DNA from: Trypanosoma brucei
Taxonomy: Eukaryota
Assembly (NCBI GenBank): GCA_000002445.1
Contig: CM000207.1
Span: 2,432,001 to 2,496,000 of the forward strand
Direction of reading: 5' to 3'
DNA length: 64,000 nucleotides
A program made the position numbers and the translations under genes. Shown here in pieces: positions 20,501 through 64,000 of the stretch (the first letter of the stretch is position 1; each line of letters starts with the position of its first letter). The notes beneath the pieces are model-generated. The model saw only the letters and a list, made by a program, of their open reading frames with translations, ran no database searches and had not been told where the DNA came from.

Positions 20501-20537
<37 letters not shown>

Positions 20538-22410: not shown

Positions 22411-22443
<33 letters not shown>

Positions 22444-23472: not shown

Positions 23473-23508
<36 letters not shown>

Positions 23509-25285: not shown

Positions 25286-26717
25286 TTGATTTTTGTTTTT
25301 TTTTATTTTTAAATTATTCCACAAAATTAATTAATCAAAGATATCTCGTTTTATTTTATTTTATTTTATTTTATTTTGTTTTTTTTTATCTTCTCTTTCT
25401 TTTTTGTCTGATTCGATTAACACTCAGTTGTTGCCAAACCTTTTCGTATGCACGTATAATTGCCTTCCTACGCATACGTGCGTGTGTGTGTGTGTGTGTG
25501 TGTGTTTTAAAAATAAAAAATAAAAAGGTAACCGGAGAAGAATTCTCATTTTGGATTCAGTACAAATATATAAATATATATATATATATATAGATAGATA
25601 GATAGACATAAAACTTATTTAAAAAAAAAAGCACAAAGATCAGAGAGCACAAAATTAAAATAAAATAAAATAAAAGCTGTGAAACAAGCACCATGGCTGG
25701 GCACAACTTAAGCACTAAAACACACCAACTGTTGTCGGTAGTGTTGTCTCCCACATAAACACGCACACCGCATAAGCATAAACATAAACACGCATGTGAA
25801 TATATGAGTGTATTTATACATTTATTTATGTTCATATATTTATGTATATTTATTTATTCGTACATTTGCATATTTGTTTGCCTCACTGTACTAAACGAAG
25901 GGGGGCGGGATTTACACCTCCCTTTATTTTATTTCATTAGTTTATACGTCTATTAATCTTCTCCCAAAGCATTTTATTTTCCTCTTTTTTTTTCTTTTCT
26001 CTTATTTTTATTTTTTTTTTTAAAAAAAAACAAACTCTCCTTTTCCCCACTCCTCTCACGTTTATTTGCATTCTTCTGTTTTTAACTAACTATTTCTTAC
26101 TTATTCTTCATATGGTAAATCTTGTCCTTTTTTTTTATGTTTTGTTTGTTTGTTTAATTTCCCCATTTTCCTCCTCTTTCTTTTTTTTTTTTGATATGTC
26201 CAAAAGCAACAAAAACAAACAAACAAAACATAAAAAAAAAGAGCAAACAAGAAGTACAAACAGAAGTGAGGAAAAAAAGAAGAAAAAAAAGCCTTGAGTA
26301 GCACCGTAGGAAAACAAAATAAAGATTAAAAAAAAGAAAAAGAAAAAGAAAACCGATAACAAAAATATGACATTGAGGTTGAGGGAGAATGAAAGGATAA
26401 TTTATTTTATTTATATTTTTTTTAAAAATTCAAAAAGAGAAACTCACAACGAAGTGGAAAACGAAAGGGGGGGGGAAACAGAAGCATCTAATTTTCGGTT
26501 TGTTTTTTGGTTTTTAGTTCTTGGTTTTCGGTTGGATTTAATTAAATCAGAAAGGACATCATCAACATCACAAAAAGCATGTGGGAAACAGTATTCTCCA
26601 AGAAGTGTAAAGGAGAAAGTGGAGAAAAAGGGAGCAAAGAAGGAGGAAAAAAGAAAAAAAGAAAAAAAAGAAAAAAAAAGCGCAATAAGAATACAATTCA
26701 AAAAAAAAAAAATCGAG

Positions 26718-29692: not shown

Positions 29693-29914
29693 CTATACCA
29701 CCTTTTCGATTTTAACTAGGGACATAGAGGCATCTACCAAGTATCGGTTAGCGGTACGTAGCCCAGTCACCTCTGCGCGACATATGGGACACACAGTTGC
29801 AGTTGAAACACAACCTCGGCAAAATATATGCGTACACGGCAATAGTTCTACAGGATCTGACCACTGCTCCAAGCAGATGACGCAAGCCACAACATCAGAG
29901 GCGGGTGCTACCAT
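29693..29914 (-). pseudogene. Inverted partial duplicate of the RING-finger exon of the 40102-41121 gene (73-aa fragment; C3HC4 RING intact, no GTPase part)
   Basis: Encodes MVAPASDVVACVICLEQWSDPVELLPCTHIFCRGCVSTATVCPICRAEVTGLRTANRYLVDASMSLVK, which matches the N-terminus of the 40102 gene at about 98 percent. It diverges after SLVK and terminates. Beyond the duplicated 5' leader it has no upstream polypyrimidine tract plus AG. Confidence 0.7.
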
Positions 29915-29984
29915 TGGTAATGGTGAGAAGGGGACAAGCCCCGGCCGCCAATAAATAGGTGCTAAAAACGCCTTAGGAACCGCT
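29708..29984. repeat. Left arm of the inverted repeat (277 bp, about 98 percent identical). The partner arm is at 40031-40307.
   Basis: The reverse complement of ccggccgccaataaataggtgctaaaaacgccttaggaaccgc (29941-29982) equals 40033-40074. The match continues through the RING coding region to the ctagttaaaat / attttaactag boundary. Confidence 0.85.
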
Positions 29985-31278
29985 ATGGAAGAGAGGGATC
30001 CTCCAACACAAATCTGTGACCGAGTCTCAGCAATTCGTAGATCCAGAGAAGGTGTTTAATTTGAACATAGAAATCCTCCAGCGGTGTCATGAACTTACCC
30101 CCATTTCCACTACATCCATGCGCGGCAGAAGGCACTGATGAAAATTTTTAAAAAGGTAGTGGAGGATGCCATTACACAAGCTCCGGCAGGCGCAACCAAA
30201 TCTGTTGAGTGCAGCATTTCATTGTTTTGCACTTGCCTGTCGACAGCGAGCGTGGACTTGATAGTCATCTCCGATCGTTAGTACACCCAATGCGATCCCC
30301 TTCCTGATTTCCTCCAGTCAACAGTTAGGCCAAGGTGGTGGAAAGTCACCATTCATCGTTACATACAGAGCATGATAGAAAAAAAAAAATGTCCCCTGCA
30401 CACGAAAAAACAATGGCACGGTTGTTTGTTATGTAACCTGACCGTGTGTATATCCCTGTTTACACTCCATTGATGTATTAGCCTTTGTGTGAACCATTAA
30501 CTAGAAGGCGGTGACGGCATATTAAGCAACAAGAAGCATGATAAGATTTTTAATGAGGGAAAGAAAAGGTAAAAGGGAACAACATTATGGTATTGAGGAT
30601 ATAGCGAACATGATGCTCAGTAAATTCAAATATTAAGATAGCTCCACATCAGTTCACCGCACTGCGCAACGCGGTGGTGGGATTCCCACTTTTGTATACA
30701 TCAAGAAATGCAACATTCATAGTGTCGTTATCTGCAGTTGCTCAACAATGAGTGCGCCTTGGCGGACTCATTACCCCCATACAAAGCAAAACGGTAAATA
30801 AACGTAATGTTTTTGTGCCATTGTTCTTTTTTTCTTTTTTTCTTTTTTTCTTTTTCCCCCTCCCCTCGTTTCTCACGCAGTAGGAAGAGTAGCATACACA
30901 TACATACGTGTCAAGGGAAAGTATTTACCACACATAAATGTAGTTCGAATACCTAATATGAACCCATTAGTGATGTTAGTAGGCACGTACATTCGTTTTA
31001 TTGTTTGGCTTCATACGTCCTCATTCTGTATCACCCCACTCGGTCGTGCCTTCAGTTGTAGAGTGACAACATAACCCGGGTATGTTTTTCAAAGTTTAGA
31101 TTGAGCAAAAAAAAAAAGCAAATGGAGACGAGAGTGCAATAAGTGCGCACCCGTAGAAAATATGCAACCACAGAAAGAGCAAGAGTATGTTGAACCATTA
31201 CAAATGTACTGGACGGCAAGGCTCACATGACATGTAATCTGGGATATGGACAACAGTAGTTTCATATAATATACTACA

Positions 31279-40101: not shown

Positions 40102-40307
40102 ATGCCAGCACCCGCCTCTGATGTTGTGGCTTGCGCCATCTGCTTGGAGCAATGGTCAGATCCTGTAGAACTATTGCCGTGTACGCATATATTTTGCCGA
40201 GGTTGTGTTTCAACTACAACTGTGTGTCCCATATGTCGCGCAGAGGTGACTGGGCGACGTACCGCTAACCGATACTTGGTAGATGCCTCTATGTCCCTAG
40301 TTAAAAT
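40031..40307. repeat. Right arm of the inverted repeat (partner of 29708-29984). It covers the 5' leader and the RING-finger coding region.
   Basis: See the left arm. Confidence 0.85.
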
Positions 40308-41121
40308 GAAGGAACGGGATGAAAAGGCACGCGAGGAGGCGGAAAAATTGCTAAATGAAGTCATCGAGCAATCACAGGGGAAAATGTATAAGCCTACCGC
40401 GGCTGCCGGTGTGGGAGTTAACACACAGCCGCACAACCGGCGGATGAGGGTGGAAACGCTAAGAAGCACGCCTGATTATATTTTTAAGATTATACTCGTC
40501 GGTGATAGTTATGTTGGGAAGACCCGATTCTTGAAGAATCTCGTTGGTGCTATCGGCTTCGGGGATCAATGCGTCACCACCCTCAGCGTTGATGTCGTTA
40601 ATCATTACGTTATCGTTGATGGAAAGACAGTTCAGGTTTTAATGTATGATACTTGCGGCCAGGAACGTTTCCGAGCCATGACAGCACAGTTCTACCGTGA
40701 CGCCCACGGTGCCATAATGGTGTACGACACCACTCAAATTGGGAGTTTCGACAATATCGAAGTGTGGTTCTCGCAGCTCAACAGTTTTGGTTGTGAAAAT
40801 ACGAGCAAAATACTTGTCGGAAATAAATGTGATCTCCCCGAAAGAAGGGCCGTTGAAATTGGGCGGGCCAGAGCCCTGGCCGACAAACTGGGCGTTCCCT
40901 TTATAGAAACGAGCGCAATGACTGGTGCCGGAGTTGCCGTAGCAGTTGAGGCCTTAGTGAGAATGATTATGAGACAACAACCTGTTCCACTAGCCAGCCA
41001 ATGGGCAGGCAGTAAAAGCGGACATAGAAATGCAGTCAATTTGGAAAGACCCCGCCGGGAGAACGGCACCGGCAGACGGTCTGAGAGGAGCCAGAGAAAT
41101 GATAATTGTTGCTGCCAATAA
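40102..41121 (+). CDS. RING-finger (C3HC4) / Rab-like small GTPase fusion protein (339 aa) with a C-terminal CCCQ prenylation-type motif
   Basis: ATG start. RING spacing C-x2-C-x12-C-x-H-x2-C-x2-C-x6-C-x2-C (CAICLEQWSDPVELLPCTHIFCRGCVSTTTVCPICR). GTPase G1 GDSYVGKT, G3 DTCGQE followed by RFRAMTAQFYRDAHGAIMVYD (Rab-family RFRS/YYRGA signature region), G4 GNKCD, G5 ETSAM. Ends ...NDNCCCQ. Confidence 0.8.
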   Translation: MPAPASDVVACAICLEQWSDPVELLPCTHIFCRGCVSTTTVCPICRAEVTGRRTANRYLVDASMSLVKMKERDEKAREEAEKLLNEVIEQSQGKMYKPTAAAGVGVNTQPHNRRMRVETLRSTPDYIFKIILVGDSYVGKTRFLKNLVGAIGFGDQCVTTLSVDVVNHYVIVDGKTVQVLMYDTCGQERFRAMTAQFYRDAHGAIMVYDTTQIGSFDNIEVWFSQLNSFGCENTSKILVGNKCDLPERRAVEIGRARALADKLGVPFIETSAMTGAGVAVAVEALVRMIMRQQPVPLASQWAGSKSGHRNAVNLERPRRENGTGRRSERSQRNDNCCCQ

Positions 41122-41532: not shown

Positions 41533-42720
41533 ATGCAGTGTCTCCGCTTCGTCGATGGTAAAAAGTGTTCAGTCAACACAGTGGGTGCATCCCTTTCTGC
41601 AGTGGCATGCGTGGTGGCGTTTATAGCCTTCATTGCTGAAATTAATTCTGAGGGTTGGCAATATAGGGGGAAGGTATGGTTAGATGCACCAACTAGTCGG
41701 CGAGTCCCATTTAGGAATCCGAGAGTCATTTTTGTTGTTGTTCAGACCCGACCCTCTCCAGGTTGGTGCAGAATGTTGATGACTGCTGTTGTCACGAATG
41801 TTTCTGTAATTTCTATTGGTATGGGTGGGAATTACAGTCACACCATCCGGGCAAACTGGTTATTGAACTTCTTGGATGATGAGGGTCTCCATGATGATGA
41901 TGTGTTAGTTATGTTTGATGGTGCGGACACATTCTTCACTGATGAGATCAATCGAAAAGAGATGCTAGACCCGTTCATAAAAATGTCTCCCCCACTGCCC
42001 AAATTCTTTAACCAAACGGCTATATACAGAGGTGACGCTTGGCCGCCCATGCTTCACATGGCAGAACCAGATTGTTATGCTCCCCAGTTGAACATCACAT
42101 ACAACCCGCAAAATGAGTCGCATTGGGATCGATGCGCAAGGTTTTACGCCATGGGCCTGTCAGAAGCGAAAACATTCGGTGCTGAGCGGCTTCTGGGGTT
42201 GCCACCTCCCGTGCGTGGACACCTCAACAGTGGAGGAATTGTGGGCCGGGTATGGGCGTATAAAGAGGCCTTTAATGTCTATTTAAAGTTCAGGGAGACA
42301 TCCTCTAAATGGTGGTGCGATCAGACCATGTGGACAATACTTTTCATTTGGAGCGCAGGAAATGCAACGGGTGTGGATCCCAAATACATAATACGGCGTG
42401 GAATAATTAGTCTTGACTATGACAAGAGATACTTTTACTACCCAACAGCGGCGTACAACACGCGTGCGATGATCGGCCACTTCACAGGAAATCCCCACCA
42501 GTGGTTACGGTATCTCCCGAAGTACTTTACTCGCCTTCCTTGGTATAGGAACCTTGCGGGAAACAGTACCTACAGGCAGAGTGTCGTGGAAGCATTACGA
42601 AATACGACCGTCATAACTTACAAATACACCCGGGAGAAGGTTTTGAAAAGTTATGAGGATGTCTGCAACGTTGAAGAAATGACCGACCCCGACTTCGTGG
42701 TCGACCCACTGGATAAGTGA
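41533..42720 (+). CDS. Type II membrane protein, putative glycosyltransferase-like (395 aa)
   Basis: ATG start, with a polypyrimidine tract plus AG upstream (ttgatttcttttattgatgttcctgtgcttctcctcccct). N-terminal signal-anchor (SLSAVACVVAFIAFIA). Luminal domain carries an acidic DxD-like motif (HDDDVLVMFDGADTFF) and several NxS/T sequons. The GT family was not identified. Confidence 0.45.
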   Translation: MQCLRFVDGKKCSVNTVGASLSAVACVVAFIAFIAEINSEGWQYRGKVWLDAPTSRRVPFRNPRVIFVVVQTRPSPGWCRMLMTAVVTNVSVISIGMGGNYSHTIRANWLLNFLDDEGLHDDDVLVMFDGADTFFTDEINRKEMLDPFIKMSPPLPKFFNQTAIYRGDAWPPMLHMAEPDCYAPQLNITYNPQNESHWDRCARFYAMGLSEAKTFGAERLLGLPPPVRGHLNSGGIVGRVWAYKEAFNVYLKFRETSSKWWCDQTMWTILFIWSAGNATGVDPKYIIRRGIISLDYDKRYFYYPTAAYNTRAMIGHFTGNPHQWLRYLPKYFTRLPWYRNLAGNSTYRQSVVEALRNTTVITYKYTREKVLKSYEDVCNVEEMTDPDFVVDPLDK

Positions 42721-48583: not shown

Positions 48584-50032
48584 TTACTGTGACTCATCTT
48601 TCGGGAGAGCCGAATTGACACCCAGGGCACACATACATCCAGCAAAGATACCAAACAGCAGTGAACTAACGGCCCAGTTGGCTGCTAGAGAACGTTCGCC
48701 AGCGGTCGTCAGCGAACCAGTACGCGGCGCGTAGACTCCCGCTAGACCCCCCACGTAGCCATACGTGAGCGACCAGAGGAAGCAAAGAATATAAGGGAAT
48801 GTCGTGCCCTTAATCACACTGTATGCGCAAAGCACAATTGGAATGACGAGCAACAAACGCGCAAACGTCCCAATCACCACAAAGAGCGGTGATGCGTGCA
48901 GAGTCTTGAACTGAACGAAAAGGCGCGCCACAAAATCTCCCAAGTTAAACATCATCGGAATGATCACCATATACCAGCCGTTGTCATCCGGCCCCAGTTT
49001 GACAGCAAAGAATACACCAGGGTAGATGAGGAAGGCGGTAAAGAACGCAATAAAGCACACGGCTAACATGGGCCAAACACGCCTGAACACAGACAACGCA
49101 CTCGCCTTCAACATCTGTTGCGAGTTCGTGATATTCTCAACCTGGTCCGTGTCCCTCATCGTGTCAGGGTCTACAGTGGAAGTCATCACGTTGCTCTTGC
49201 CCGCGTTGCAATCCGCTTTCAAATCGTCATCCTGGTCGGCCGGACCCTTTCCTAAGCTACTCGGTTCATTATCATCTCCAGCGTCATCACCTTCAACAGC
49301 ATTCCCTTTCCTCGCCGCGTAACGAAAGTCTGCTGTATACTTCATGGCGTAAGGGTTCTTCCTCAGCAGCAGCAGAAGACCACAAGAAATCGACTGCATA
49401 ATCATGACCAACCCAAAGTATATGCGTGACTGAGTGAGCCTACTCGCGACGCGGTCTTCTGTACGCTTGAAGTTACTCTCCGTGGAAGCTTTAATAACAA
49501 TCGCAAACGTCGACGTGATAACACCACACACTGAAACACCCCACACGTACGCACTCAAAAACTTCGTTGGAAAGGGACCGGCAAGTGCAACGGCACCGGA
49601 GCTGCAAAGTGCAGTGGAAGCTCCGTTTATCAAACCAATCAGTATAATGGTTACCCTGGCACCGGTTTCCGTTGTTTTTCCGATGGTAACCATCATCACA
49701 GAAAATACTAAGATAATCGGAAAGACAAGACCAATATAGAGGCGAAGGGTTATGGGAATCCGCTTTCCAAAGTTTGTGAGCATCAGTGACACTACCAAAC
49801 ACTCCACAATAAACGTCGTCGCAAGATAGTACGTGAAGACATTTTTCCAGAAAAATTTCTGCTCTTCCGTCTCCAGCTTGATGTTCTCGCCATCCTTGGC
49901 CGCGAAAAGGTAGAACTGGAGGAAGAACTCCAGGAACGACAAGACCGTGTTCGACACCACCATCACCGACATCCCAAAACACATGAAGGTGATATAGGCA
50001 AGGAGTTCATGCACAGAACCGAAGCCAAGCAT
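48584..50032 (-). CDS. Equilibrative nucleoside transporter (ENT) family protein, trypanosome NT/AT1-like (482 aa from the ATG)
   Basis: Multi-pass membrane protein with about 11 predicted TM segments. A large central hydrophilic loop (KGNAVEGDDAGDDNEPSSLGKGPADQDDD...) lies between TM6 and TM7, as in ENTs. The N-terminus MLGFGSVHELLAYITFMCFGMSVMVVSN and the C-terminal PRTGSLTTAGERSLAANW resemble trypanosome NT-family transporters. The track ORF start at 50068 is a TTG. The first ATG is at 50030-50032. Confidence 0.7.
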   Translation of the reverse strand: MLGFGSVHELLAYITFMCFGMSVMVVSNTVLSFLEFFLQFYLFAAKDGENIKLETEEQKFFWKNVFTYYLATTFIVECLVVSLMLTNFGKRIPITLRLYIGLVFPIILVFSVMMVTIGKTTETGARVTIILIGLINGASTALCSSGAVALAGPFPTKFLSAYVWGVSVCGVITSTFAIVIKASTESNFKRTEDRVASRLTQSRIYFGLVMIMQSISCGLLLLLRKNPYAMKYTADFRYAARKGNAVEGDDAGDDNEPSSLGKGPADQDDDLKADCNAGKSNVMTSTVDPDTMRDTDQVENITNSQQMLKASALSVFRRVWPMLAVCFIAFFTAFLIYPGVFFAVKLGPDDNGWYMVIIPMMFNLGDFVARLFVQFKTLHASPLFVVIGTFARLLLVIPIVLCAYSVIKGTTFPYILCFLWSLTYGYVGGLAGVYAPRTGSLTTAGERSLAANWAVSSLLFGIFAGCMCALGVNSALPKDESQ

Positions 50033-52734
50033 CCTTCCAATTTCAGCCAGCACACCTTTGAGTAACAACTAACCTTCTACGAAGCAAGGTGAAAGGGCAA
50101 GAAAAATGGTCATACATGTCGATATTACCATTTATCACATTAGCATGCCTCTCCTAAAGAAAAAAAACGTTTCAAGCATTAGACACAAAGCGTTCCCCCC
50201 GTGTATACGCTTAACGACCGTTAACTTTGAAGTTTTACCCACGATCGCACGTGTAATCCTCGGGAATTTTAGTCAACCTTTCTAACAAATATCGGTACTC
50301 ACAATTCATATTGCTTAAGTCCTCTAAACGCTCTCTTCGACTACAACTCATTTTACATTTGGTAAAACTGTAGGGAAAATTACACATGATACTAAAATAT
50401 TTGTTAAATCATCGGTATTAATGAAAAAAAAAATTAAGACAAGTATATTGAAAGACACATATATGTATAGAGTAGGGGTAGGCGTATACTGTGAATATAC
50501 CCTGGACAACAAGTCTTTACTTTCTTAAAGTTTTGTGTCCCTTTCCCCCACCCCAGCACACACCACCCTTGTGCGCAGCCATTTCAGCCATTTGACGTTT
50601 CTCTTGTGTTCTGTCCCTTCAGTAGGTCCCCCTTCCACATCCACATACACCTGCAGTCCCCTCTGCTAATGTTTGCCCACACGCAACCGTTGTAAAAGTG
50701 GGAGGTTTAATTGCACCAACACTCTCGCTTGAAAGATTCACTAGCAGGAAGAAATATCGAGCCCCAGACCGTTACCATTTCCACTCATGTCCTGTAACTC
50801 TTTCTCAGAAATACAAGTGCCTCGAACGTACGTGCCTTCAGTGCTTCTAACTCCACATACCGCCATCACAACCACCACCCCCAACTCCTCTGTAACCTTT
50901 TCGCAGATACTCAGAAATAAATCTTCAGGTGCTGACGCTCTATCCACATGTGTTATCTTCACCAGCTTGGGGCATTCTCTGCGACACAGCACTTCCAGCT
51001 TCTTGTGATTTCCCCCAAAATATTTGATACTCAGCAGTTATTTCCGTTAGGTTCAGCCAGAGTTTCCTTAAATTTGGCAGATTGCACATCATTTTCAACC
51101 CCTTGGTAACCTTGGTGGAGCCCCTCAACGACAATTTTTTTGAGGGTGGCCATTTTTTTTTTTTTGAGATAGTTACTTGTGCTTCTTATACGCACTTATA
51201 AAACACACCGGTGTTAGGTCTCGATCTTCTCGCGTTTTCGTTGACTGACCGAGTGACTGTATTCCTTTCCATGCATTGCTCTGTGAGGTGAAGTCCCCTT
51301 GTTGTTGTAGCGCGAGGGTAACGCATGAAGCGGTGAGTTTTTTTTAATCGTTTTTATACCAACGAGGAATGCAACTTTACGTTTGTATTCATCAGCACAT
51401 GGGCGGATTATACCAACTTCATTCGAGTTACCCCATCTTTATATATATATATATATTTCGCTACGTGTGAGCAACCTCCGAAATTTGAGGGTTCTTTGGA
51501 TATGTGATAGCTTCAAATGCGCTATTACTAACGTGGACTAATTTTACCTAGGATCGTAGTTTTTTTTTTGATTTCCCCCCCCCCCTGCGTTTCTAGCCCC
51601 ACTTACCCTCACAACTCCTTCAGTCCATCACACTCAAGTAAATGAGCAGATGACTCGTCCCGGCGCCCAGTTGTCAATTTGCTTCAAACGTTCTTCCAAC
51701 CCCGGCAGTGCACCATCCTTATTTTGCATACACAAGTTATCAGGCATTTCCTCACCCACCCCCTTATCAAATGTGCGGTTACACCTGAAACGGCTTCTTT
51801 CTGTCTTGTTATTGTTGTTTTAAGCAAAATGTACGCCTATGTTTTCTGTTGTATTGCTTTCCCAGTGCTTGATGGAATCCAATGCTCCAAAACAACGTAC
51901 GGAAACACCCTACACCGCTTTACAGTGTTTTGGGACGGTGGACAGATTCTTTCTTGCAAAAATATTCGTATAAAGAGTATTATTACTATTTCCCCCCGAG
52001 TGCCCCTGTGGAACTGTGTGTGATTACTGCATGGTAGTCGCCTGCTAATTAATGACAGGATTACCAATTTCCCAGAGGGGGCGCGGAGTCGTAACTACAT
52101 TGTGGAAAAAGTACTAACCCGTAAAAATACGGTAGGAGAGATGATCAGCACCGCAGTGTTTTGTACGGGTATCCAAACTTCCGAAGACCTTTGCATTCCC
52201 TGGGAATTTTGTTAACTACCCAAAACCACAGGTGGGTGAAGGGAAAAAAAAAACAGACTCACATACCCAAGCCGTTTTATACCTTTGTTATATTACTTTG
52301 TGCCACAGGCAAAACGTTAGTTACAAGCCATTGTTACCTTTTCCATCAATTACATCATTGTGGTATCAGCAGTCTGCAATTAATTTTCCTGAAGCGCACT
52401 GTCTGAATTTTCGTTTGCCAGCGCCTATTAAAGCGGTGCTATAACACCGGCACCGCGTACGGCTATACGTAGCGGCATTCGAGAGCCTTGTTTTTTGTTC
52501 ACGGGTTTGACAGGGCTGGACACTCACATAAATTCTTTAATTAAAGCATAAGGTGCTTTGCGTCCTCGTTGATTTCGTTAGACAGTGGACGCGACATATT
52601 CCCCATGTACTTCACAGCAAAAAACATCATTTCGCCAGGCGCCTCCGTGAATATCAGCGATGGCACCACAAACACACACGCACACACAGAGACAGAACAC
52701 TCCACAGTCGCTTGTATAACTTGGGGTCAAGTGG

Positions 52735-52983
52735 TCAAGTGGGTGGAATGCACTCGCTGTCTTCCTCCACATATTGTTCCTTAAATCGCTGACAGAAATT
52801 ATTAAGCGCAATTTTGTCCACCTCGTGATGCAGGAAGTGCTGCTGGAGCTCGCAAGCAATCTGTATGGTGGCAAACTGGCTCTTATCCGTTGTCATGAGC
52901 GAATTCTCAACAGCTTTAACTTCGGTGCATTCGGACTTGACGATCAGTGAGCGGATCACTTCGGTGATGTGTCGCAACGGCAT
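52735..52983 (-). CDS. Small 82-aa ORF with coding-like codon usage (hypothetical)
   Basis: ATG start (cat at 52981-52983). GC-rich third positions unlike the surrounding DNA. Lies in the minus block downstream of the transporter's transcription direction. No family recognised. Confidence 0.3.
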   Translation of the reverse strand: MPLRHITEVIRSLIVKSECTEVKAVENSLMTTDKSQFATIQIACELQQHFLHHEVDKIALNNFCQRFKEQYVEEDSECIPPT

Positions 52984-55900
52984 CGGGCATCAGCTCAGGG
53001 TGTCCAGCTCCCAATGTCAGTGAGCATAATTGTCACGGGTTTTATTGGCCCCTTCGACTCACAGTCGTTACCACGACTGTAGCGCAACAACCGAATCTGC
53101 ACCACCAACAGCACTTCCACAAGCATCAGCGTAATGACAGACACAATAATAAAACCTGTGAGCTGCGCAACAGTGAGTTTGTCTCCGTCAGAATCGAAAT
53201 CCTTTATAGTCGGTGTAACTGGGGACGTAAGCGGCGGCAGTGAAGGGTTCAAAACGCGTGCTACGAACCAAAGGGAAATGCGCATCGCGCCACAATTTAA
53301 CAAAAAAAACTCTCTCTTCAGTACCTTCACGACTGCACTTGAACAAGACACAGATGCGTCACGTGCGAAAAACAAGGAGAGATGCCGCATCCTCAAGCGT
53401 ATACCGTACGCTGCAGAGCAGAAGACGTTTATACGTTCCATACTTCTGTTCGCTGTGGGGTGAACACAGTCCATATTGTACATGAAAAACGTCCGTGTCA
53501 ACTGAATCTCTGTGATAATGCGATTATTTAACGCGTAAACCGCGCTGAAACATAGAGAGGATTTTCATAGTGACGACGCCTCTTCCCTGGAAAAGTCTTA
53601 GGTCAGCAACACTCAAAGGGATATCCGACATGACATTCGCCTGCACGCCACTGCTAAATTGAGATAAACCTAAAACCGAAGGGGCCGTGATTTTGAGCGC
53701 ATCCAATGGCACCAGTCTTGTGTTGCTTAGTCATTTCCACAAATGGAAGCGTTACGCATGGCATCACACGACGCTCGAGTTACAAAAGTTGTGCAATGTC
53801 AACCCATTGCTCACAGCGCAATAATTCAATAAAACCACTTCAACTATTAATTATCGCTTTTCCAAGCCATAGCACAAACGAGCAAGTCACATAATTTTTT
53901 TTGAGCACCTCACCCAACACAGCCATCGGTGGACTTCTTGATATCTGTTTGTGCACTGTGCTCACTCTCACACGAGTGGTGTGTCCAGAGCGACTGATGC
54001 ACCTCCCCCCCCCCCTCCTCCGTCATGACAGGGGTGGAAAATATCAACCTCTTGGAGCCCCCTCTCTGTATTTCAAATTAACGCTAGATAGCATCCTTGT
54101 CCACCTTCCCAATAACAAAGAAAAACAATAACGACCCGACCAAGCACTCTTGACGCGTGCACCATACCACAATAAAATGGTTTCCTGAGGAAGCCTGTTT
54201 GGTCACACGGTCGTGTGGTTCTTAGGCAAAATATTCACCTCTGAAGAAAGACTGTGGAAGCCTTCTTTCCATTGGACAGGAAACACAAGTGAGTAATAAT
54301 TATTGCACTATTGCTCGCCAGCAGCAGTGCGTACGTTTCGTTATATTTCCGAATGAATCAAAATACTTCTCAAAGTCATTCGTACACAGAGAACAAGCAG
54401 ACCATCGAGCTCATGGCAACAAGTATTTCCATGAGAGCAGAAAAATCCTGACAAAGAACAAGCACCAGTCCCCAACCCAAAACTGAGCGACAAAATAGTG
54501 TACAACAGTCAGCCAGAAAGGGGGGGGGCAGTTGCAGCCGGATTACCAGCGCGGCGTTGACTATTAGATACTCCTTGTGCAGAGAAAAGGCAAAAAAGCT
54601 GTGATTGGCACTCCGCAGGTGACATTAAGCGAATACCGTATTTGAGTTCCATCACATAAGCTACATCAGACCACGAAAATATGAAATACGCAGCTCCCAG
54701 TTGCATCAAGGAACCGCTAACATCACTCCAATCACGCCCCATCCTCAAATGTGTTTGTGTGAATGGCGTCAAATCGATGGCATCCATGGTATATGTGCAA
54801 TCCCATCCGAAGTAAAAATAATAATTCGGAACATCTACATTTATTTGTTTAAAATTTAGAAGGACATTCCGTTCTACTGCTACGACAGTAGCTATCGATA
54901 CTACACGCTGCGCTAAACTATTAAACAGTGTAACACACGTCAAAGTAATAGAAAGTGTTCTCTCACGCACCTACCTTTCACCAGAGAAATGTGACGTCCC
55001 GCAGCTGCTCGTGTGAAGACAACATATCGCATTCAGCTTCTAAAGCTGAAGGGATGGAGCGAAAACGACCTGACCGCTTGCCTTCTCACCTACTCCACCG
55101 TGATATTTTAGAAAATAAAAATGTTCATAAGTATTGTTAGCGCACACAAAAACTGCGTGCGACAACGAGCATCGGGAGAATAATATTAAAAATACTGCAT
55201 CGAATCCATGAGACTTTGAACAGAAACATCACACTACTTTGTTGTCGTTCAACCGGACTCGAAGTCAGTTTCGTTTCACAACGCATCCATGACCCAATAG
55301 ATGAGTATCATACCTGGCATTCACGATGATGTTTCCACACTCCTAATACTGCCGCAGTATTTTGGTCTTTGTATCCACCTGCGAATCAATTGAAAATAGC
55401 ATACATCCAGAATTATGAAGATGATAAGGTACAGTTGATATACACTATTCCTTCTTAACGTGAGGGTGACTGTGTTCACACTAGGCGTCACATGACTACC
55501 CTGCAACTCTCAGGTGCGAAGTGGCGCTGTTACCAACACGCAAAAAAAAAAACTCTCAACAGACGGTCTCATTCCTTCCTTTCAGAGAGAAGATGTGTCG
55601 GCTGTTGTTGAACTGTTTCAAGTATATGACACCTAAGAGCACATTGAATTGGCACCTAATTTTTTCCTCGTAATATCCGATGGAGGCAGTCACCGTAGAC
55701 ATGATATGAAAAACGCAGACACGTAACACCAAGAATGCCGTTGCACCGGTGAGCGAACTTTTACGATCACCAAACTGCACCTGTGGCTTAGACCATAAAA
55801 TTCAAAGGTGCTACATATTTTTAGAAGCTTTAAATACGATGCAAAGTGGAAGAATCGTTGCTTCCTACCGCTGGTTGGTAAAGCCGCATTACTGAATTTA

Positions 55901-58900
55901 TCACGAGTAACGCACAGTAACTGCTACCTCATACACTTAAGGGGAGCAGTACATATGATCCTCCCTCCTGAGTATTCGCTATGAATAACCACAGTAACGC
56001 CTGCTTCATTAGGTGATTGTCTCTGGTACCAACGGCCAGTGCACTATGATAAGCCAAATGATTCGTCAAATGGTTGGTAACATTTCATCTGCGTTCCTTT
56101 ACATCGTCAGCACAATGCATACATGCTGTTGCAAAACACTGTATGCGTAAGAGCAGTCACCGAATACATCACAACTTGAAGGTATAATAATAAGCATATG
56201 CATTTACCGAGGTACTACATCTGTCATCCCTTTGTTTGACATAGCACAGTAAATACTGCTGAACAATCCAGGAGCACAAAGAAAAATTTTTTAAAAATAG
56301 TATTTTTTTTTCCAGGCTCAGCAGACATTAATATCATTTGCATGCCACACACATTTGTAAGAATGTCACACCCACATGTATATGTTTATCAAAAACACAA
56401 AGATGAAAGAGGATAGCAGAGCCACATCCATCAGTCGCTATTCCAGTGGTCATAAAATAACTACATACGATAAGAGTCTATCTCCAATGCATCTTATCGA
56501 AAGTTCAACTGTACCCACTAGGCAACTGCAAGCACAGAAAAGAGGGAAGTGGCACAAAGCCGAAGATGCGCCCGTGCAGCAGCCTCAGACAACCGTTACT
56601 TATGCAATGCAACACAAAAAAGCTTCTCCTAGCTTGATGGAGCAGAGAACACTTTTAGTCCAAACTAATATAGGCAGAAAAAAAAAAAAGCAATGTACGA
56701 ACTCAATAATACACACCAAACAGCGACCCAACACAAAATGCAAGACATACATAAAGCCACCGAAGCTGATGGCAGGTTGAAACGTCATATGCTTCGTTTT
56801 GTTTTTCTTTTATCACCTCTTAGAGGCCCGTAAAATATCCATCCACTTGAATAGAACCACATGATAACATGAACTCACGCAGGAGAAGTTTCAGACACTT
56901 TTGCATATTTGAATATCCACATGAGATTATTCGCACCAACAGGAGTCAACAAGTTTCCCACTAAACGCCATGCCGCAAGTGCGAGCAGACGCTACGAGTG
57001 CCCCGTAGAGAAGTGCCTTTGCACGTTGCAACGTGCAACACTTTGTATTCCTACAAATGGGAATAGAGAAGGTTATAGTATTTAAAAAGTAGGTCTCGGA
57101 TAATGCTACTTCCACCTCGGGTTGTATTCAGTGAATTGCTCCTAAGATATTTGCAACGACATGAACAAACAAGTGGTTCGGACCCTACCCACACCGTTCT
57201 ACAATATGCCTAAATTAGTTTGTCCATCAATTTCCTCTCGCGGACTGCATATTCACCCTCATCTTGCATGTTTCAACACTCGTACCTTCACTTTCAGTAC
57301 GCTACTGTGTCTCTTGTATCTTTTATGCATTTTTTATCATTTATGGGTAGACTTCGTGTGAGTTTAAGGTTTAAAAAATTGCTTCTTTTTCCATTTTTTC
57401 CTTATGCTAAATTCAGCGCATCGCCCATATCATGAAGAACTCGCAGGAATGTCACGCATCTAAAATGTGTACCACACGCAAAACATGGAGCAATACATGC
57501 CTGCCGAACCACAATCGTAACGTTGTTGTAATCCGTTTGTAAAGGACAATGTTGTTGTGAGTGTAGAGGTGTGGCATGACGTTGATAAGGAGACTTTAGA
57601 ATCTAATGACCCCTTATTTATTTGTCCGTTTTTTAGATGATCCTCCAGTTTCCGCACTATTGATCCAGGTGATTTAGTGGTAACATATTAGCCGCGCTAG
57701 CCTTCACACGCACAGGCTTCCCCTGCATCTGTCAGTCTCTTCTATTGCTACTGTGTATGTGCGTCGTGGGGTCCCTCATTGTGATATTCAAGCCAAAAAA
57801 AAAAAAAAAAGCGCCGAACACCTGAATACTAACTGTCAGCATTAATGCAATCACCATCCATCACTTTGTCTACATTAACAAAGTTGCTCCGATTATGAAC
57901 CAGCACCGAAAGCACGAGCAGTGTCAGCCACTGTCACAACAGTTAGATCACATGAGCATAACCCGTTGAACTCAGCAAAAGCCAAAAAAAAAGGGTCAGA
58001 CCGCCGCCTGGACAAAGGAGACGACGCCAGAAACTGAGAGACGGTGATGGAGCGCCTGCGTTTTTTTTTTTTAAATCCTCGGCAGAGGCGCCCATTAACC
58101 GTGTCTTCATGTTCTTCGAGGCCCTTCTCACAGATCATGAAGCTCAAAATATGGCAAAATCCCTTCACGACCTCCTCCTAAGGAATCCCAACTCGGCGCA
58201 ACAAGCAACCGGCTACTCGCGCGCTCACCATGCAGAGCGAAGGCCCTTTTAGCGCTTCCTGCGAGTCGTGGCAATGGCAATTCCAATTTGTTACAGCGAA
58301 CGTCGTAACCTTTGTGAAAGCAACACTCCATTCGGCCGCTTGAACGTTAAACTACGTGAGTTGCAGCGCTTCGTGATATCGCAGTGACGGGAACTGAAGG
58401 CGGTGTGAGGGAAGCTACCGAAGAAAAAGCTCTCAAATGACGTCACGGGCCGCCGGGAACGGTGGACGTTTGAGACCGAAGTGAGCCTTGTGCCATCGTT
58501 GGTTGACGTGGGGCCGTTTGCGGTTCGTCCTTATGGCAAACCGGTCATGAGCCTTCTGTTCAAATAGTTTTCAACGCAGCCCGGTGGTTGTGGGGTCACG
58601 CTGTGCGGAGGTGTAACTTGTCTTCACCCTCGGCTGGCTGGGGAAAAGCGGGGGCGGAAAGCCGTGTGTTGAGAGTGTTCTCGTCTTTGTGGTTCTTTTG
58701 CCCTCTCCGCGATGGTGCTGCAGTCCGTCGTTTTCCGGAGACTGTTTGCTTGGGGACGTGCGCTTGTCGATGCCTTTTTACTGTTTGTAGGATCCGGAGT
58801 GCTAAAAGTACTGTTTGTGCCTGCGTGTTAGGGGTGGAGAGTCGCCTGAGCTTTGCGCAGTGCGCGGCGCGGCAGCATGCGGAGAGTATGTAGGCAGCGG

Positions 58901-59503
58901 GGTAACGAGCAGTGTTGAGTGTGTTGGTGGCAAAATGCCGGCAGGTAAAAAGTGTCAAAAACGTGTGTTGGTGTGCCGGGTGTGTTCAAATATATTTGGT
59001 GTTGACGTTAATCTTTTTCCTTACTAACCACCATTTTCATATTGTTGTTTTTTTACTTGCTCCCCTCAGTCGGCATGGATCCACGTTCGGGAGTGTACGG
59101 CTTAATTTCGAGCGGTTTCGACATCTGCATTTGTAAGCTCATTTGGCGATGGTAAACAGGGCGCGCAGCAGTAGCAAAAGGGCCAAGTGATGAGTAATGA
59201 GTCTGAAGAATAATGAGCGGATGACTGCGCAAAGAAGTGAGGAAGCGAATATCCTCTTTTGCGATGCGGAGGTGAAAGTGGAAGGAAGCGATGATAAGAT
59301 AGTGACGAATAGCATAGAGGTGGCGGGGAACTAGAGAATCAGATCATCAGGCGGTCTTGCGAAAGAAAAAGGACAAAAGTAGGACGCCAGAAGGTCTACA
59401 CAATTATAGTGGTAAACACTCGGGAGGAGGTGCAGGAAAGAAGAGGGGTTTGCGGGAGGGAGCGGAGGTTAGGAACCCGCGTTGCAGCTGCTGATGAGAT
59501 TCG

Positions 59504-61017
59504 TTGCCGGGTGCTACTTCATTTTTGTGCGACTATTACCGACGGTTTTACGCTGCTGTGAACAACACTGAGAAAATTGGTGGCGTGTGGTCCCGTGGAA
59601 AAGAAACTCGTGGAATATATTATTTACCTCCACTCTTCCACCAACCACGGCCTCAGGTACTGAATTTGGAGGGCGGAGATGTCTCTGACTCAGTACTTGA
59701 GAGGATCTCCAAAACAAAGTCGCTGCAGTCACTTAACTTGTCAAAATGTTGTCGTATAACCGACATATCAGCATTATCATCCCTCCCGACACTGGAAGAA
59801 CTGAATATTAGCCGTTCTATAATAATTAAAAGTGGTTGGGAGGCACTCGGCAAGTTGACTCGGCTACGCGTGGCAATTATTTCCTTAAGTGATGTTGCTA
59901 ACGAAGGAATATGTCTCCTCAGCGGGTGCAAATATCTCAGAAATTTGCAACCGATCCGGTGTTACGTTTTGTCCAACATTGAGGCGGTAAACAACATCAA
60001 TTCACTGGAGGAGCTCACCGTTGAGAATTGTGTGGACATTAAGGAAGGTCTGCTCAAGGTTGGAATGCTACCAAGGCTACGGGTACTGGCGTTGAGGCAC
60101 GTAAAACTCAGTTTTTTTCTCTCAGTTAACTAGGAGAGAGAAAATCACTGGTGAAACTCACTATCAAAGGATCTAAGGAACTCTGCGACATCAAACTTAT
60201 TTCCAACATTGCAACACTTAGGGAATTGAAAGTCGCCTATTGTGACAGATTATTAAACGACGTAGGGGATCTTAGGAAACTGCTATGGCTTAATGTACTG
60301 AGACTCCGCTATTTCAAGGTGGGAAATAGCTGTTTTGAGAGTGTCTGCACCATGCGCTCGTTGAAATCACTTGACGTCGCCTACTCAAAGAAATTAACAG
60401 ATATATCTCATATATCAAACCTTACGGCACTGGAGGAATTGAATCTGAGCGGATGTTACCTCATAATTTCAGGCTGGGAAGCACTAAGCGAATCACCACG
60501 ACTTCGTGTGCTCAACTTGGAATCCGCCAGAGTTACGACGCGTTACGATGGACATTATATCAGCAGATGCAAATCCCTCGTCACACTCAACCTTGAATCG
60601 TGTTATATGACCGATGCTTCATGTCTTGCTATTATCAAGACACTGGAGGAGTTGCATATAGGGAAATCCAAAGAGCTAACGCAGGGGTTTAGTGCACTTT
60701 TCACTCTTCTGAGGTTGCGCATTCTTAACCTGATTTGTTCTCTCATTACAGATGAAGATCTCAGGGAAATTCAACCACCCCATACCATTGAGGAACTCAA
60801 TCTTTCTTATTGTGAAGAGCTCAATGATATTACACCACTTGGGAGAATAAAATCAATTAAAAAATTGCATCTCCGTCAGAGACATGATGTCAGAAGGCCC
60901 ACAGAAGGATTCAGAAGTCTTTTGGAATTGCCATGTCTTTCTTGGGTTGACCTAGACAACGTGTGTGGTTGGTCTGATGTTTCTTGTGAACTGAGAAAAA
61001 GGAGGGTACATACCTAA
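59504..61017 (+). pseudogene. ESAG8-like leucine-rich repeat protein (LRRP) gene, disrupted. Two LRR ORF pieces (59504-60133 and 60151-61017) lie in different frames with stops at 60127-60133.
   Basis: Tandem 22-24-residue LRRs of the trypanosome LRRP/ESAG8 type, for example LQSLNLSKCCRITDISALSSLPTLEELNISRS and LEELNLSGCYLIISGWEALSESPRLRVLNLE. Piece 1 has no in-frame ATG (TTG 'start'). Piece 2 begins with GTG. All three forward frames have stops within 60127-60160. No RING module lies upstream. Confidence 0.65.
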
Positions 61018-64000
61018 TAATATTTGATCCATTGTTTCACTTTGTATAATTGGAACCACTTATTTCTGAGAATACGCTACTAAATTTAACAGCCAGTTCG
61101 AGTAGCTATTTACTGTAGGCACTATTACTCAAACAGATACCAGTAACAATTCATACGGATGATATTGTATGTTACACTATCTTAAATACGAGAAATACGA
61201 GGATCTCATTACAGTTATTTAAGCGCTTCGTATTTTACTAGGTCATACCAATCATATATTGTGAAGAATAAAGAACAGTTAGGAAAGTGTGTGTAAGTAT
61301 GCACAAGGCTTTTTTCTCAATGGAAATTTGTATTTTAGTTGTAAGCGTAGTAATTATTGTATTACGCTCATTTATACTACAACCATGTCAAATGAATATC
61401 TCATTTCTTGTATGTTTTTCTGTTTTTACAGCCACATACTCTCACCCAAATGTCGAATGAAATATTACCGTTATTATTATTATTATTTCTATCGTTCTTA
61501 TTGTTATTACATGAAACACAACATTCACATTTAATTTTTAATCATAGCCACACCTGAAAAGTAAAAGCACTCAACATTCTACAGTACTGTATACCTGTCA
61601 ATGATATGAGGAGGTGAAGTTTATATACCATTAAAGTATAGTGAATATATTTCATTATTCTTATTATTATTATTTGTTTTACTGAAAGAAATGACGGAAT
61701 GACTTTACAATAAATTATATCAGAGCAGCATGTTGTGCACCAAGTTGTTACATGGGAGAGTGTTTTGAAACACATTACGTGTCTTGCAATCCTTTTTCAC
61801 ATTTGCTGCTGGCAGATATATATTCTCAAACAGTGCGATTGAATATTCTCGTTTCATTAAAATATTTTAACTTGTTGTATTTGTTTGGTTTTGTAATAAC
61901 ATAATTTGTTTTATTACATTTCCTTTCAGAATTATTTGTGCCAAACTTTCGTGAAGATGTCATACATTCTGAATACCCTTGCGCAGCAAAGGGTAGCGTA
62001 CCACATTAATTCATTAACATTTGTGCTACATGTGCATGGGAAAGTGTATTAAGCATTTCACTGGTTTTGGGAAATATTATTTTCTTTCTTACAACATGAT
62101 GCCTCAGAAGAACTGAAGGCGAGAGCAAATCCTTTCATTGATTTTATTTTCCTTTTCTTACCGTATCCGTATATGTTTATGACTTTCCAAAAAACACTGC
62201 TGAGGTAAATTATGTATTTCTTCATATTTAATTTTTATTTGACAATAACGAGCAAAGGGATTTCCTCCTCACACACTTAAATTAATTAGACACTGCTGTT
62301 AGCTGATAAGTTACAGACAGCCGCACATTTAAGTTACACAAATCCACACCGATTCGAAATAGTAAAATATCAAATGTTATGTATTTATTTATTTGAGAAA
62401 AAAAAAAAGAGACGAAAAGCAGCGCTGCATCTGAAAGGAGATGCATGTGAAATCGAAGAACAACTGTCATTTGAATATCATATCCGCAAATTGTTTCGCT
62501 TACATTATTAGCAGTAAATGCTTACGGAACTTGGGAGGTGAATGACTACTGAAATTAAAAGGTTGAGGACGCACTGCGATGACACATGAGAAAAACATTG
62601 GTGGGATTTTTATATATTGGAAAGTGGAGTGGCTTTAAGGTGTTTTGCATGATGCTTAGTTGGAGATTGAAATACTTCATGAGATAGTGAAAGACTGTTA
62701 TGATACAGGAATCTTTTCGTTTACTAATTTCAAGAGCACTCCCGCGACGCACTTTTTTTCGGTTTACATTGCAAGAGGTGGCATGATATTTGCAACCGCT
62801 TATTTCTTATTTATTTTTTCGAGTTTATATAAGTGTGGTTTGGTGACGTGGACAATTTCAGTCTGCAACTGATGTGGCAATTCAATAATTATCAATGAAG
62901 TTTGGGGAGTGTGTTCCAAATAATGATATTATGTGTATGAGCGAAGCGTTTATCTCCTATTACTAAAACACGCAGTGCTAAGCATAATTTGATTAGGTTG
63001 TCATACAACTTTGAAGAATTGCACAGAGTTTACAGGAGGGTGCGGAAACGTTTAAGGTATTACGTCTCATATCAGATATGAATTGGCCTTTCGCCAAAAA
63101 TAAAAAGAAAGATGCCGTAGGGAAATATTCATTCAGGCGATTTGCACGTGTGGAACCTTGTAAAGAGTGAAGGAAAATTACAGCCTGTCATATGTGAAGG
63201 TATTTATCACACGCGTTTATCTAACTGCAATCGGTAACCCTGGAACTTGCAACTCTCGGAATTTGGGTTCTTTTTATCCTCTACAAGTTACTGCATTGTG
63301 ATGCAGAATAGTTGCTTGTTTTTTGCGCATCTATATGGTATTCCCATTTATATTATTATTATTTTTTTTTTTGATAAATCAATTGACGCACGCGTAGGCA
63401 CAATTAAACAGTAGAGATAGAGGGAATAGTTTCAAAGGCTATGAAGGGAATTGCCATCTCACATGCGAGGTTATATTATTTTTTAATCTCATTATAAAGG
63501 CCTGGAACCCATCAGTGACTTCAGCTGGAAACTGGCAAAACATTCTCACCATCACTTCTGAGGAGCAAATCTCCTTTGCATAAGTATGGCAAATGACTCA
63601 TCGTGGCGCTGGTTTCCAATATTTCGTGTTTTCTGCTGGGAAATAAACACCTTGGAGAAACTAAAATTACAAGAGCCTTCCTGTTATCGACCTGTATTTT
63701 CAAGGAAAAACCGCTACATGACGGAGGGTCGCCCCCCTGAATCATACGGCAGTAATGGGCGGAAACTCCTGCAGTCAAGTCACCACTACGAGCATTACTG
63801 TCCAGTGGCTGATGTTGTTGACACGGTTGTGCTCAGGAAAAAAAGGTGTAACTTCACATTAAGACAACAATTTCAAAGGTACCGTATGGAAATCTCTTGC
63901 TCTCTTCCCGAATATTAGGTGGCTTAGCCTGGGTTTAAAATGTGTCGTGATGTATCGTTGTGCAATGTTACAGAAATTAAGTAAGTAATAGAGGGAAAGC

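What the first reader, a model, noticed from the sequence alone, without database searches (positions are those of the whole stretch)
58580..61017. The ESAG8-like LRR gene is decapitated and frameshifted. The RING module normally found on ESAG8-type proteins is instead found fused to a Rab 19 kb away.
The LRR reading frame has no ATG. It starts after a stop at 59495-59497. All three forward frames carry stops at 60127-60160. The LRR series nonetheless continues on the other side in a different frame, so this is a pseudogene. ESAG8 proteins carry an N-terminal RING followed by LRRs. Here only Cys-rich debris lies upstream (for example KKCQKRVLVCRVCSNIFG in the 58815-59027 ORF). A complete RING is attached to the Rab-like gene at 40102, and a second copy is at 29.7 kb. 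This is compatible with the RING having been mobilised from an ESAG8-like gene.
Basis: inference. Interest (0 to 1): 0.5.

Follow-up and report, generated by a model that had tools for sequence, protein, structure and literature searches.

The report
Ordinary broken LRRP gene, no RING loss
This is a disabled copy of a leucine-rich-repeat (LRRP family) gene on Trypanosoma brucei TREU927 chromosome 9. It is a real pseudogene, but nothing shows that it ever had a RING finger or that its RING moved to the nearby Rab gene.

Summary
The window is T. b. brucei TREU927 DNA: two window proteins exactly match TREU927 proteins on a 3.06-Mb contig.

The description holds. An LRR reading frame opens after TGA TGA at 59492-59497. 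It breaks near 60119-60133 and continues in another frame to 61017.

The syntenic T. b. equiperdum allele is an intact 465-aa ORF. Against it, the window copy has three lesions:
- the start codon is lost (ATG to GTG, 59585)
- one base is missing at 60118/60119
- TCA has become TAA at 60127-60129

So it is a pseudogene allele of a weakly constrained gene (dN/dS 0.60).

The "decapitated ESAG8, RING moved to the Rab" story is not supported:
- The intact ortholog starts at the same point and has no RING.
- Both alleles share the upstream stops.
- No RING or other Pfam domain appears in six frames of 58300-59600, even at E<=10.
- The upstream Cys-richness is compositional.
- The nearest relatives are RING-less LRRPs (201-211 bits). 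RING-bearing LRRPs score 107-138 bits and ESAG8 89-97 bits.
- The Rab's RING is closest to another T. brucei RING/coiled-coil protein and to bodonid RING proteins. ESAG8 ranks about 60th to 100th.

The second RING copy at 29.7 kb is real. It is a 278-bp inverted duplicate.

Overall this is ordinary and of low interest.

The parts
58580..59491 (+). Upstream non-coding stretch. Its 5' part is G+T-rich, and there is no RING or other domain relic.
   Evidence: Six-frame Pfam scan gives 0 families at E<=10. No RING regex match; 58580-59030 is 65% G+T and Cys is enriched in all three frames. BLAST with RING, LRRP and ESAG8 queries gives nothing better than E=0.14. About 96% identical to the T. b. 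equiperdum allele.
59492..59497 (+). Two in-frame stop codons (TGA TGA) that close the LRR frame upstream. Both strains have them.
   Evidence: L001 has the same CTGCTGATGAGATTC.
59585..59587 (+). Lost start codon: GTG here, where the intact ortholog has ATG (M1 of the 465-aa protein).
   Evidence: Window GCGTGTGG against L001 GCATGTGG. P0001 starts MWSRGKETRG and the window reads VWSRGKETRG.
59585..60118 (+). First half of the LRR pseudogene (frame mod3=2). It ends at the frameshift point.
   Evidence: Pfam LRR_4 at E=2.4e-8. tblastn of the repaired protein, residues 1-178, maps here at 100%. Aligns to P0001.
60013..60051 (+). 39 nt (13 codons, ...TVENCVDIKEGL...) present here and missing from the T. 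b. equiperdum allele. They complete an LRR unit, so the 'intact' allele has damage of its own.
   Evidence: 39-nt gap in L001.
60112..60119 (+). T7C run with one base missing relative to the ortholog (TTTTTTCTCC in L001). This shifts the reading from frame 2 to frame 1.
   Evidence: 1-nt gap in the window at alignment position 533.
60127..60129 (+). Nonsense codon TAA in the downstream frame, where the ortholog has TCA (Ser).
   Evidence: 'stop codon pair TAA TCA'.
60119..61017 (+). Second half of the LRR pseudogene (frame mod3=1). It ends at TAA 61015-61017.
   Evidence: Pfam LRR_4 at E=3.3e-13 and LRR_8 at 3e-10. tblastn of residues 174-477 maps to 60103-61014. Aligns to P0001.
40102..41121 (+). 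RING-Rab gene (339 aa), with the RING at about 40132-40239. It is not derived from the LRR locus as far as can be tested.
   Evidence: Pfam. 98% identical to the T. equiperdum and T. b. gambiense 339-aa proteins. Residues 1-87 align from Met1 with residues 1-93 of T. brucei RING protein P0366 at 40% identity.
29709..29986 (-). Inverted 278-bp duplicate of the Rab gene's 5' flank (72 nt) plus its first 206 coding nt. It gives a 73-aa RING-only ORF at 29693-29914.
   Evidence: Self-BLAST at 97.5%. The boundaries are sharp. Pfam zf-C3HC4_3 at 39 bits.

Best explanation
Positions 59585-61017 hold a disabled allele of a short, RING-less member of the trypanosome LRRP (leucine-rich repeat protein) family, on T. 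b. brucei TREU927 chromosome 9. The gene consists of about 24 residues followed directly by LRRs. In T. b. equiperdum it is still a 465-aa ORF. In this genome three independent lesions prevent synthesis of the protein: the initiator ATG is now GTG, one base is missing in a T/C run at 60118/60119, and a Ser codon has become TAA at 60127. Both alleles carry private damage and the pair evolves under weak constraint, so the locus is a decaying LRRP gene. This much is shown. That it has no remaining function is inferred. The RING on the Rab gene 19 kb away is an unrelated matter. Its closest relative is a different T. brucei RING/coiled-coil protein, and its local second copy arose by a small inverted segmental duplication.
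For: Source genome: the window's nucleoside transporter and ESAG3-like proteins exactly match TREU927 proteins XP_827733 and XP_827729 on a 3,057,547-bp contig.

Synteny: T. b. equiperdum contig QSBY01000016 matches window 49500-63137 at 95-98% identity.

Lesions, base by base: ATG to GTG, a 1-nt gap, TCA to TAA, and a 39-nt deletion on the other allele.

Constraint: dS=0.11, dN=0.067, dN/dS=0.60, with 57 of 461 residues different.

Family: Pfam LRR matches in both frames. The best homologs after the ortholog are RING-less LRRPs of T. vivax (211 bits), T. brucei/T. equiperdum (836 aa, 201 bits) and T. congolense. The RING-LRRPs score 138 and 107 bits and ESAG8 scores 89-97 bits.

No RING upstream.

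Rab RING affinities.
Against: There is no outgroup allele, so the direction of each change rests on parsimony (open frame and intact LRR pattern on one side).

dN/dS of 0.6 is somewhat below 1. My rough chi-square on the counts gives p of about 0.02. Part of the shared history was therefore under some constraint, and the equiperdum allele may still function.

The best local alignment puts the gene on the C-terminal half of the 836-aa LRRP (residues 376-785). An old 5' truncation of a longer RING-less ancestor therefore cannot be excluded.

No expression data were available.
Confidence: 0.85

Rival explanations
1. An ESAG8-type gene (N-terminal RING plus LRRs) lost its head here, and that RING module was moved to the Rab gene at 40102, with a second copy at 29.7 kb.
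For: ESAG8 and two chromosome-internal LRRPs do have an N-terminal RING before the LRRs (PMC3605285).

The Rab RING and the ESAG8/LRRP RINGs have the same Cys/His spacing and are 40-44% identical over about 50 residues.

The RING module is physically duplicated within the window.
Against: The intact ortholog has no RING and starts at the same codon.

There is no RING relic upstream.

The LRRs are closer to RING-less LRRPs.

Dozens of other RINGs score higher against the Rab RING than ESAG8 does. ESAG8 reaches 43.5-48.3 bits at rank 63-96, and the RING-LRRPs reach 37 bits at rank about 123-125, against 64.9 bits for P0216. ESAG8 or a RING-LRRP is the nearest neighbour in 21 of 2000 resamplings.

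The Rab N-terminus aligns from Met1 through the coiled coil with T. brucei RING protein P0366.
Confidence: 0.03
2. Decapitation without a RING. The locus is an old 5'-truncated copy of a longer RING-less LRRP (600-850 aa). The head was lost before the T. brucei strains diverged, and the TREU927 copy later picked up the three disabling lesions.
For: Other LRRPs are 600-850 aa with 100-370 residues that this gene lacks.

The best alignment is to residues 376-785 of the 836-aa LRRP and is anchored at the C-terminus.

Both strains share the double stop 29 codons upstream of the start.
Against: The LRR register is ambiguous, and alternative alignments start at residues 186 and 225 of the same protein.

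No LRR or N-terminal relic lies upstream.

The ortholog has a proper ATG directly before the first repeat.
Confidence: 0.3
3. The gene is functional and the breaks are assembly or sequencing errors, or a shorter LRR protein is made from an internal ATG (for example MRSLKSL... at about 60349).
For: The 1-nt gap lies in a T-rich run, which is a typical site of sequencing error. The downstream frame is open for 288 codons.
Against: Two of the three lesions are substitutions (ATG to GTG, TCA to TAA), not run-length errors. The locus shows elevated, patchy non-synonymous divergence.
Confidence: 0.05

Closest known systems
Trypanosome LRRP (leucine-rich repeat protein) family, RING-less members (e.g. 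T. brucei XP_951500 / T. equiperdum 836-aa LRRP, T. vivax LRRPs)
   Same: The same kind of repeat units, in which ...L.L..C..ITD.S.L... units alternate with ...LE.L.L..C..I..G...L..L..LR.L.L... units. They are the best database hits after the ortholog, at 29-31% identity and E=1e-52 to 1e-54 against 5.8 billion proteins. They have no RING.
   Different: This gene is shorter (465-478 codons against 600-850) and has almost no N-terminal region. It is broken in TREU927 by start-codon loss, a frameshift and a nonsense codon.
ESAG8 (P26337 / CAQ57457) and the RING-bearing LRRPs Tb927.3.580-type (XP_843654) and Tb927.1.3670-type (XP_001219064)
   Same: LRR proteins of the same broad family.
   Different: They carry an N-terminal C3HC4 RING (Pfam 28.4 bits for ESAG8) and, per PMC3605285, an NLS. 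The window gene and its intact ortholog have neither a RING nor a relic of one. Their similarity to the window gene is lower, at 89-138 bits against 201-211 bits. ESAG8 sits in telomeric VSG expression sites, whereas this locus lies among ordinary chromosome-9 genes.
T. brucei RING/coiled-coil protein XP_846369 (P0366/P0216) and bodonid RING proteins (e.g. Neobodo designis P0372 cluster)
   Same: These are the closest relatives of the Rab gene's RING module. P0216 scores 64.9 bits at 47% identity. The alignment with P0366 starts at Met1 and runs through the RING into the EEAEK(L/I)L coiled coil.
   Different: They have no Rab domain. They are relevant to the RING-Rab gene, not to the LRR pseudogene.

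Membership tests
Trypanosome LRRP family | Tandem leucine-rich repeats recognised by LRR profiles | tested here: met
   Pfam LRR_4 at E=2.4e-8 (first half) and 3.3e-13 (second half), and LRR_8 at 3e-10.
Trypanosome LRRP family | Closest homologs are annotated trypanosome LRRPs | tested here: met
   After the ortholog, the next 13 hits are all Trypanosoma proteins (T. vivax, T. brucei/T. equiperdum, T. congolense), several of them annotated as LRRPs, at E=2.6e-54 to 1.1e-23. phmmer ranking.
Trypanosome LRRP family | Intact coding sequence (functional member rather than pseudogene) | tested here: not met
   ATG to GTG at 59585, a 1-nt deletion at 60118/60119 and TAA at 60127-60129, all relative to the intact syntenic allele.
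ESAG8 / RING-LRRP subgroup | N-terminal C3HC4 RING finger upstream of the LRRs | tested here: not met
   No Pfam hit in six frames of 58300-59600 at E<=10. No RING regex match. BLAST gives nothing better than E=0.14. Ortholog P0001 has no RING.
ESAG8 / RING-LRRP subgroup | Nuclear localisation signal (called diagnostic in PMC3605285) | not tested
   No NLS predictor was available. The 24-residue N-terminus of the ortholog has no obvious basic cluster (read directly).
ESAG8 / RING-LRRP subgroup | LRR domain most similar to ESAG8 or the RING-LRRPs | tested here: not met
   ESAG8 scores 89-97 bits and the RING-LRRPs 107-138 bits, against 201-211 bits for RING-less LRRPs.
ESAG8 / RING-LRRP subgroup | Location in a telomeric VSG expression site (ESAG8 proper) | tested here: not met
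   The neighbours are a nucleoside transporter, an ESAG3-like gene, the RING-Rab and a BPI-like gene on the 3.06-Mb TREU927 contig. Tandem Repeats Finder reports only two small arrays in the window, at 21.1 and 22.9 kb.
RING-HC (C3HC4) domain, for the Rab N-terminus and the 29.7-kb copy | C-x2-C...C-x-H-x2-C-x2-C...C-x2-C pattern with a profile score above the curated cut-off | tested here: met
   zf-C3HC4_3 scores 33.5 bits (Rab) and 39.1 bits (copy) against a cut-off of 27. The regex control is positive.
Rab GTPase, for ORF 40102-41121 | Ras-family GTPase domain and C-terminal Cys prenylation motif | tested here: met
   Pfam Ras at 143 bits. The best non-self hits are Rab1/RabD proteins at 37-48% identity. 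The protein ends in ...NDNCCCQ.

The most novel reading that the evidence does not exclude
The RING module at the head of the Rab gene may be a mobile N-terminal cassette. A 278-bp piece holding exactly its 5' flank, start codon and RING has been copied in inverted orientation 10 kb away. The same kind of small segmental duplication could have put related RINGs in front of a Rab1-like GTPase (found here only in the T. brucei group) and, independently, in front of the LRRs of ESAG8 and the two RING-LRRPs. The LRR pseudogene at 59.6-61.0 kb would play no part in this.
Probability: 0.12. Interest if true: 0.4.

Novelty: already known. Interest (0 to 1): 0.1.

Why it matters
It matters little. From general knowledge, degenerate LRRP genes and other decaying multigene-family copies are a routine feature of T. 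brucei chromosomes, and this one adds no new mechanism.

The useful outcome is negative. The attractive idea that an ESAG8-like gene donated its RING to a Rab does not stand.

Three side observations may help annotators:
- The locus differs in coding status between T. brucei strains.
- The TREU927 protein model for the Rab gene (276 aa) leaves out a RING that the gambiense and equiperdum models (339 aa) include.
- A RING-only duplicate lies 10 kb upstream of the Rab gene.

Tried and rejected
(1) I looked for a RING relic upstream of the LRRs in four ways:
- BLASTP of the Rab, XP_843654-type and XP_001219064-type N-termini against six-frame peptides of 57000-59700 (best E=0.14).
- tblastn of 18 LRRP/ESAG8 proteins against 54000-59600 (best E=0.16).
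- Pfam on all six frames of 58300-59600 at E<=10 (nothing).
- A RING consensus regex (nothing).

(2) I looked for other LRR relics or an intact paralog in the window. There are none outside 59585-61017.

I replaced it with score ranking and column resampling.

(4) I tried to see the locus in T. b. gambiense DAL972. That record ends at the equivalent of window 58698, short of the LRR gene.

(5) I tried to see whether the 29.7-kb RING copy exists in T. equiperdum. Both available contigs end before it.

(6) An exact look-up of the 339-aa Rab protein failed. The likely reason is that the TREU927 model on record is the 276-aa version.

(7) Rfam and the tandem-repeat scan of the whole window found nothing relevant.

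(8) A literature search for a described RING-Rab in T. brucei found nothing specific.

(9) The ortholog's label 'paraflagellar rod component' was considered and set aside. Four PFC proteins contain LRRs (PMC2645819). The name is probably an automatic transfer based on LRR similarity, although I did not compare the gene with the PFC proteins.
Full report
**Where the window comes from.** Pfam identifies two VSG_B-domain ORFs, an RHS protein, a nucleoside transporter and a RING-plus-Ras ORF. The transporter (48584-50032, minus strand) exactly matches T. b. brucei TREU927 protein XP_827733. The 395-aa ORF at 41533-42717 exactly matches XP_827729, which its sources call ESAG or ESAG3-like. Both lie on a 3,057,547-bp contig. 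From the contig size and my own knowledge, that is chromosome 9.

**Checking the observation.** Three-frame translation of 58400-61100 and the ORF list confirm the description.
- One frame is closed by TGA TGA at 59492-59497, then open to TAG at 60131-60133. Its only ATG is at 60065.
- A second frame is closed by TAA at 60127-60129, then open to TAA at 61015-61017.
- The third frame has stops at 60093, 60102 and 60174.
- Both open stretches match LRR profiles (LRR_4 at E=2.4e-8 and 3.3e-13).
- The RING-Rab ORF at 40102-41121 is real.
- The second RING is real. It is a 278-bp inverted duplicate, 29709-29986 matching 40307-40030 at 97.5%, with sharp boundaries. It covers 72 nt of 5' flank and the first 206 coding nt, giving a 73-aa RING-only ORF.

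**What the LRR locus is.** I searched 5.8 billion proteins with the conceptually joined protein. The top hit is a 465-aa T. b. equiperdum protein (P0001, E=8.6e-247). All the next hits down to E=1e-23 are Trypanosoma proteins, several of them annotated as LRRPs.

The contig carrying P0001 is collinear with window 49500-63137 at 95-98% identity, so P0001 is the ortholog and not a paralog. The base-by-base alignment and the codon analysis show the following.
- P0001's ATG corresponds to GTG at window 59585.
- The window lacks one base in the T/C run at 60112-60119.
- The window has TAA at 60127-60129 where the ortholog has TCA.
- The ortholog lacks 39 nt (window 60013-60051) that complete an LRR unit.
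- Both alleles share the TGA TGA 29 codons upstream of the start.
- The pair differs at 57 of 461 residues, with dS=0.11, dN=0.067 and dN/dS=0.60.

Two of the three lesions are substitutions, so the pseudogene call does not depend on a possible run-length sequencing error. The locus is therefore a weakly constrained, decaying LRRP gene. It is dead in TREU927 and still an open frame, though damaged, in T. b. equiperdum.

**Was it decapitated, and did it have a RING?** The intact allele starts at the same place and has about 24 residues before the first repeat. Four searches for a RING or any N-terminal relic upstream were negative.

That marks a composition effect, not a coding relic.

Within the family, the window protein scores as follows:
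- 211 bits against a RING-less T. vivax LRRP
- 201 bits against the RING-less 836-aa T. brucei/T. equiperdum LRRP
- 138 and 107 bits against the two RING-bearing LRRPs
- 89-97 bits against ESAG8

Jackson et al. (PMC3605285) call the RING and NLS motifs diagnostic of ESAG8. They find them also in the two chromosome-internal LRRP genes closest to it, Tb927.1.3670 and Tb927.3.580. None of the closer LRRP relatives examined here has an N-terminal RING. A RING is therefore not expected on this gene.

One caveat remains. The best local alignment puts the gene on residues 376-785 of the 836-aa LRRP. An old 5' truncation of a longer RING-less ancestor, predating the split of the strains, cannot be excluded. 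I keep it as a rival at 0.3.

**Where the Rab's RING comes from.** I searched residues 1-75 of the Rab ORF with phmmer against 1.84 billion representative proteins.
- The best non-self hit is P0216 (64.9 bits, 47% identity). Its cluster holds T. brucei TREU927 XP_846369 and its T. b. gambiense and T. equiperdum counterparts, annotated as RING-type or conserved hypothetical proteins.
- Next come many unnamed proteins from environmental and transcriptome assemblies. They have an N-terminal RING of the same spacing, and one cluster includes Neobodo designis.
- ESAG8 (P0313 = P26337) scores 44.9 bits and ranks near 100th.
- In a local re-scoring, the ESAG8 variants rank 63-96 and the two RING-LRRPs rank 123-125 of 177.
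- On a 60-column alignment of 115 RINGs, ESAG8 or a RING-LRRP was the nearest neighbour of the Rab RING in 21 of 2000 column resamplings. A median of 44 other RINGs scored above the best of them.
- The Rab N-terminus (residues 1-87) aligns with P0366 from Met1 through the RING and into a shared EEAEK(L/I)L coiled coil (residues 1-93 of P0366, 40% identity).

The limits are that the domain is short and that I could not complete a bootstrapped tree.

**Comparison with what is known, and novelty.** The feature is a pseudogene member of the trypanosome LRRP family. It fails the tests for the ESAG8/RING-LRRP subgroup on RING, relative similarity and genomic setting. From general knowledge, LRRP pseudogenes are a familiar category in T. 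brucei genome annotation. I could not read the TREU927 annotation of this particular locus. The ortholog's label 'paraflagellar rod component' is probably an automatic transfer, since four PFC proteins contain LRRs (PMC2645819), although I did not compare the gene with those proteins.

**Verdict.** The pseudogene interpretation is supported. The decapitation and RING-mobilisation story is not supported. Interest is low (0.1). The most novel reading still open concerns the RING cassette of the Rab gene and its inverted duplicate, not the LRR locus.

Noticed in passing
window 29709-29986 (-) and 40030-40307 (+): A 278-bp inverted duplicate (97.5% identity) holds exactly the Rab gene's 72-nt 5' flank, its ATG and its RING. 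It gives a free-standing 73-aa RING-only ORF at 29693-29914. This copy is slightly closer to the T. equiperdum Rab RING (98.6%) than to the window's own (97.5%). It flanks a 10-kb segment that contains the BPI-like gene.
   Followed up: partly
window 40102-41121: The TREU927 protein model on record for this gene is 276 aa (XP_827728), a length that fits a start at Met64, downstream of the RING. The T. b. gambiense and T. equiperdum models are 339 aa and include the RING. The ORF is continuous from ATG 40102 in the window.
   Followed up: partly
window 40102-41121: The RING plus Rab1-like architecture appeared only in the T. brucei-group cluster. Among the 120 listed of 435 hits, the next best are ordinary Rab1/RabD proteins at 37-48% identity with no RING. 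It may be a lineage-specific fusion.
   Followed up: partly
window 59585-61017 vs L001 10001-11398: The LRR gene is more diverged between the strains (dS 0.11, about 7% of sites) than the upstream flank (about 4%). The differences come in tight clusters, for example at 59945-59975, 60376-60392 and 60897-60902. That may reflect gene conversion from other repeats or paralogs.
   Followed up: no
window 63137/63138; L001 13521 onward: T. b. equiperdum has an ingi-type retroelement here (5' end GGCCCTGGCGATGCCGGCCACC..., with a 1481-aa endonuclease/RT/RNase H ORF). It starts exactly where collinearity with the window ends. The window has no RT-coding sequence, and the DNA beyond the element in L001 does not match window 63138-64000.
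   Followed up: partly
window 1-5714 and 8483-14181: A 5.7-kb direct duplication at 93% identity. Each copy carries a VSG_B-domain ORF (1761-3185 and 10233-11654, 474 and 473 aa) with identical C-terminal thirds.
   Followed up: no
window 15587-17359 (-): A 590-aa retrotransposon hot spot (RHS) protein ORF (Pfam RHSP, RHS_N, DUF7578) lies next to the duplicated VSG_B genes.
   Followed up: no
window 20000-26000: A markedly AT-rich tract (GC 26-33%, against 41-50% elsewhere) with an (AAT)17 microsatellite at 22937-22987. Its nature was not examined.
   Followed up: no
window 41533-42720 (+): A 395-aa ORF with no Pfam match. It exactly matches TREU927 XP_827729, which its sources call 'ESAG protein, putative' or ESAG3-like. 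It lies directly downstream of the RING-Rab gene.
   Followed up: no
L001 10001-11398 (T. b. equiperdum RHW66990): The intact ortholog is named 'paraflagellar rod component'. Some PFC proteins contain LRRs (PMC2645819), so the name looks like a similarity-based transfer and not evidence of flagellar location.
   Followed up: partly
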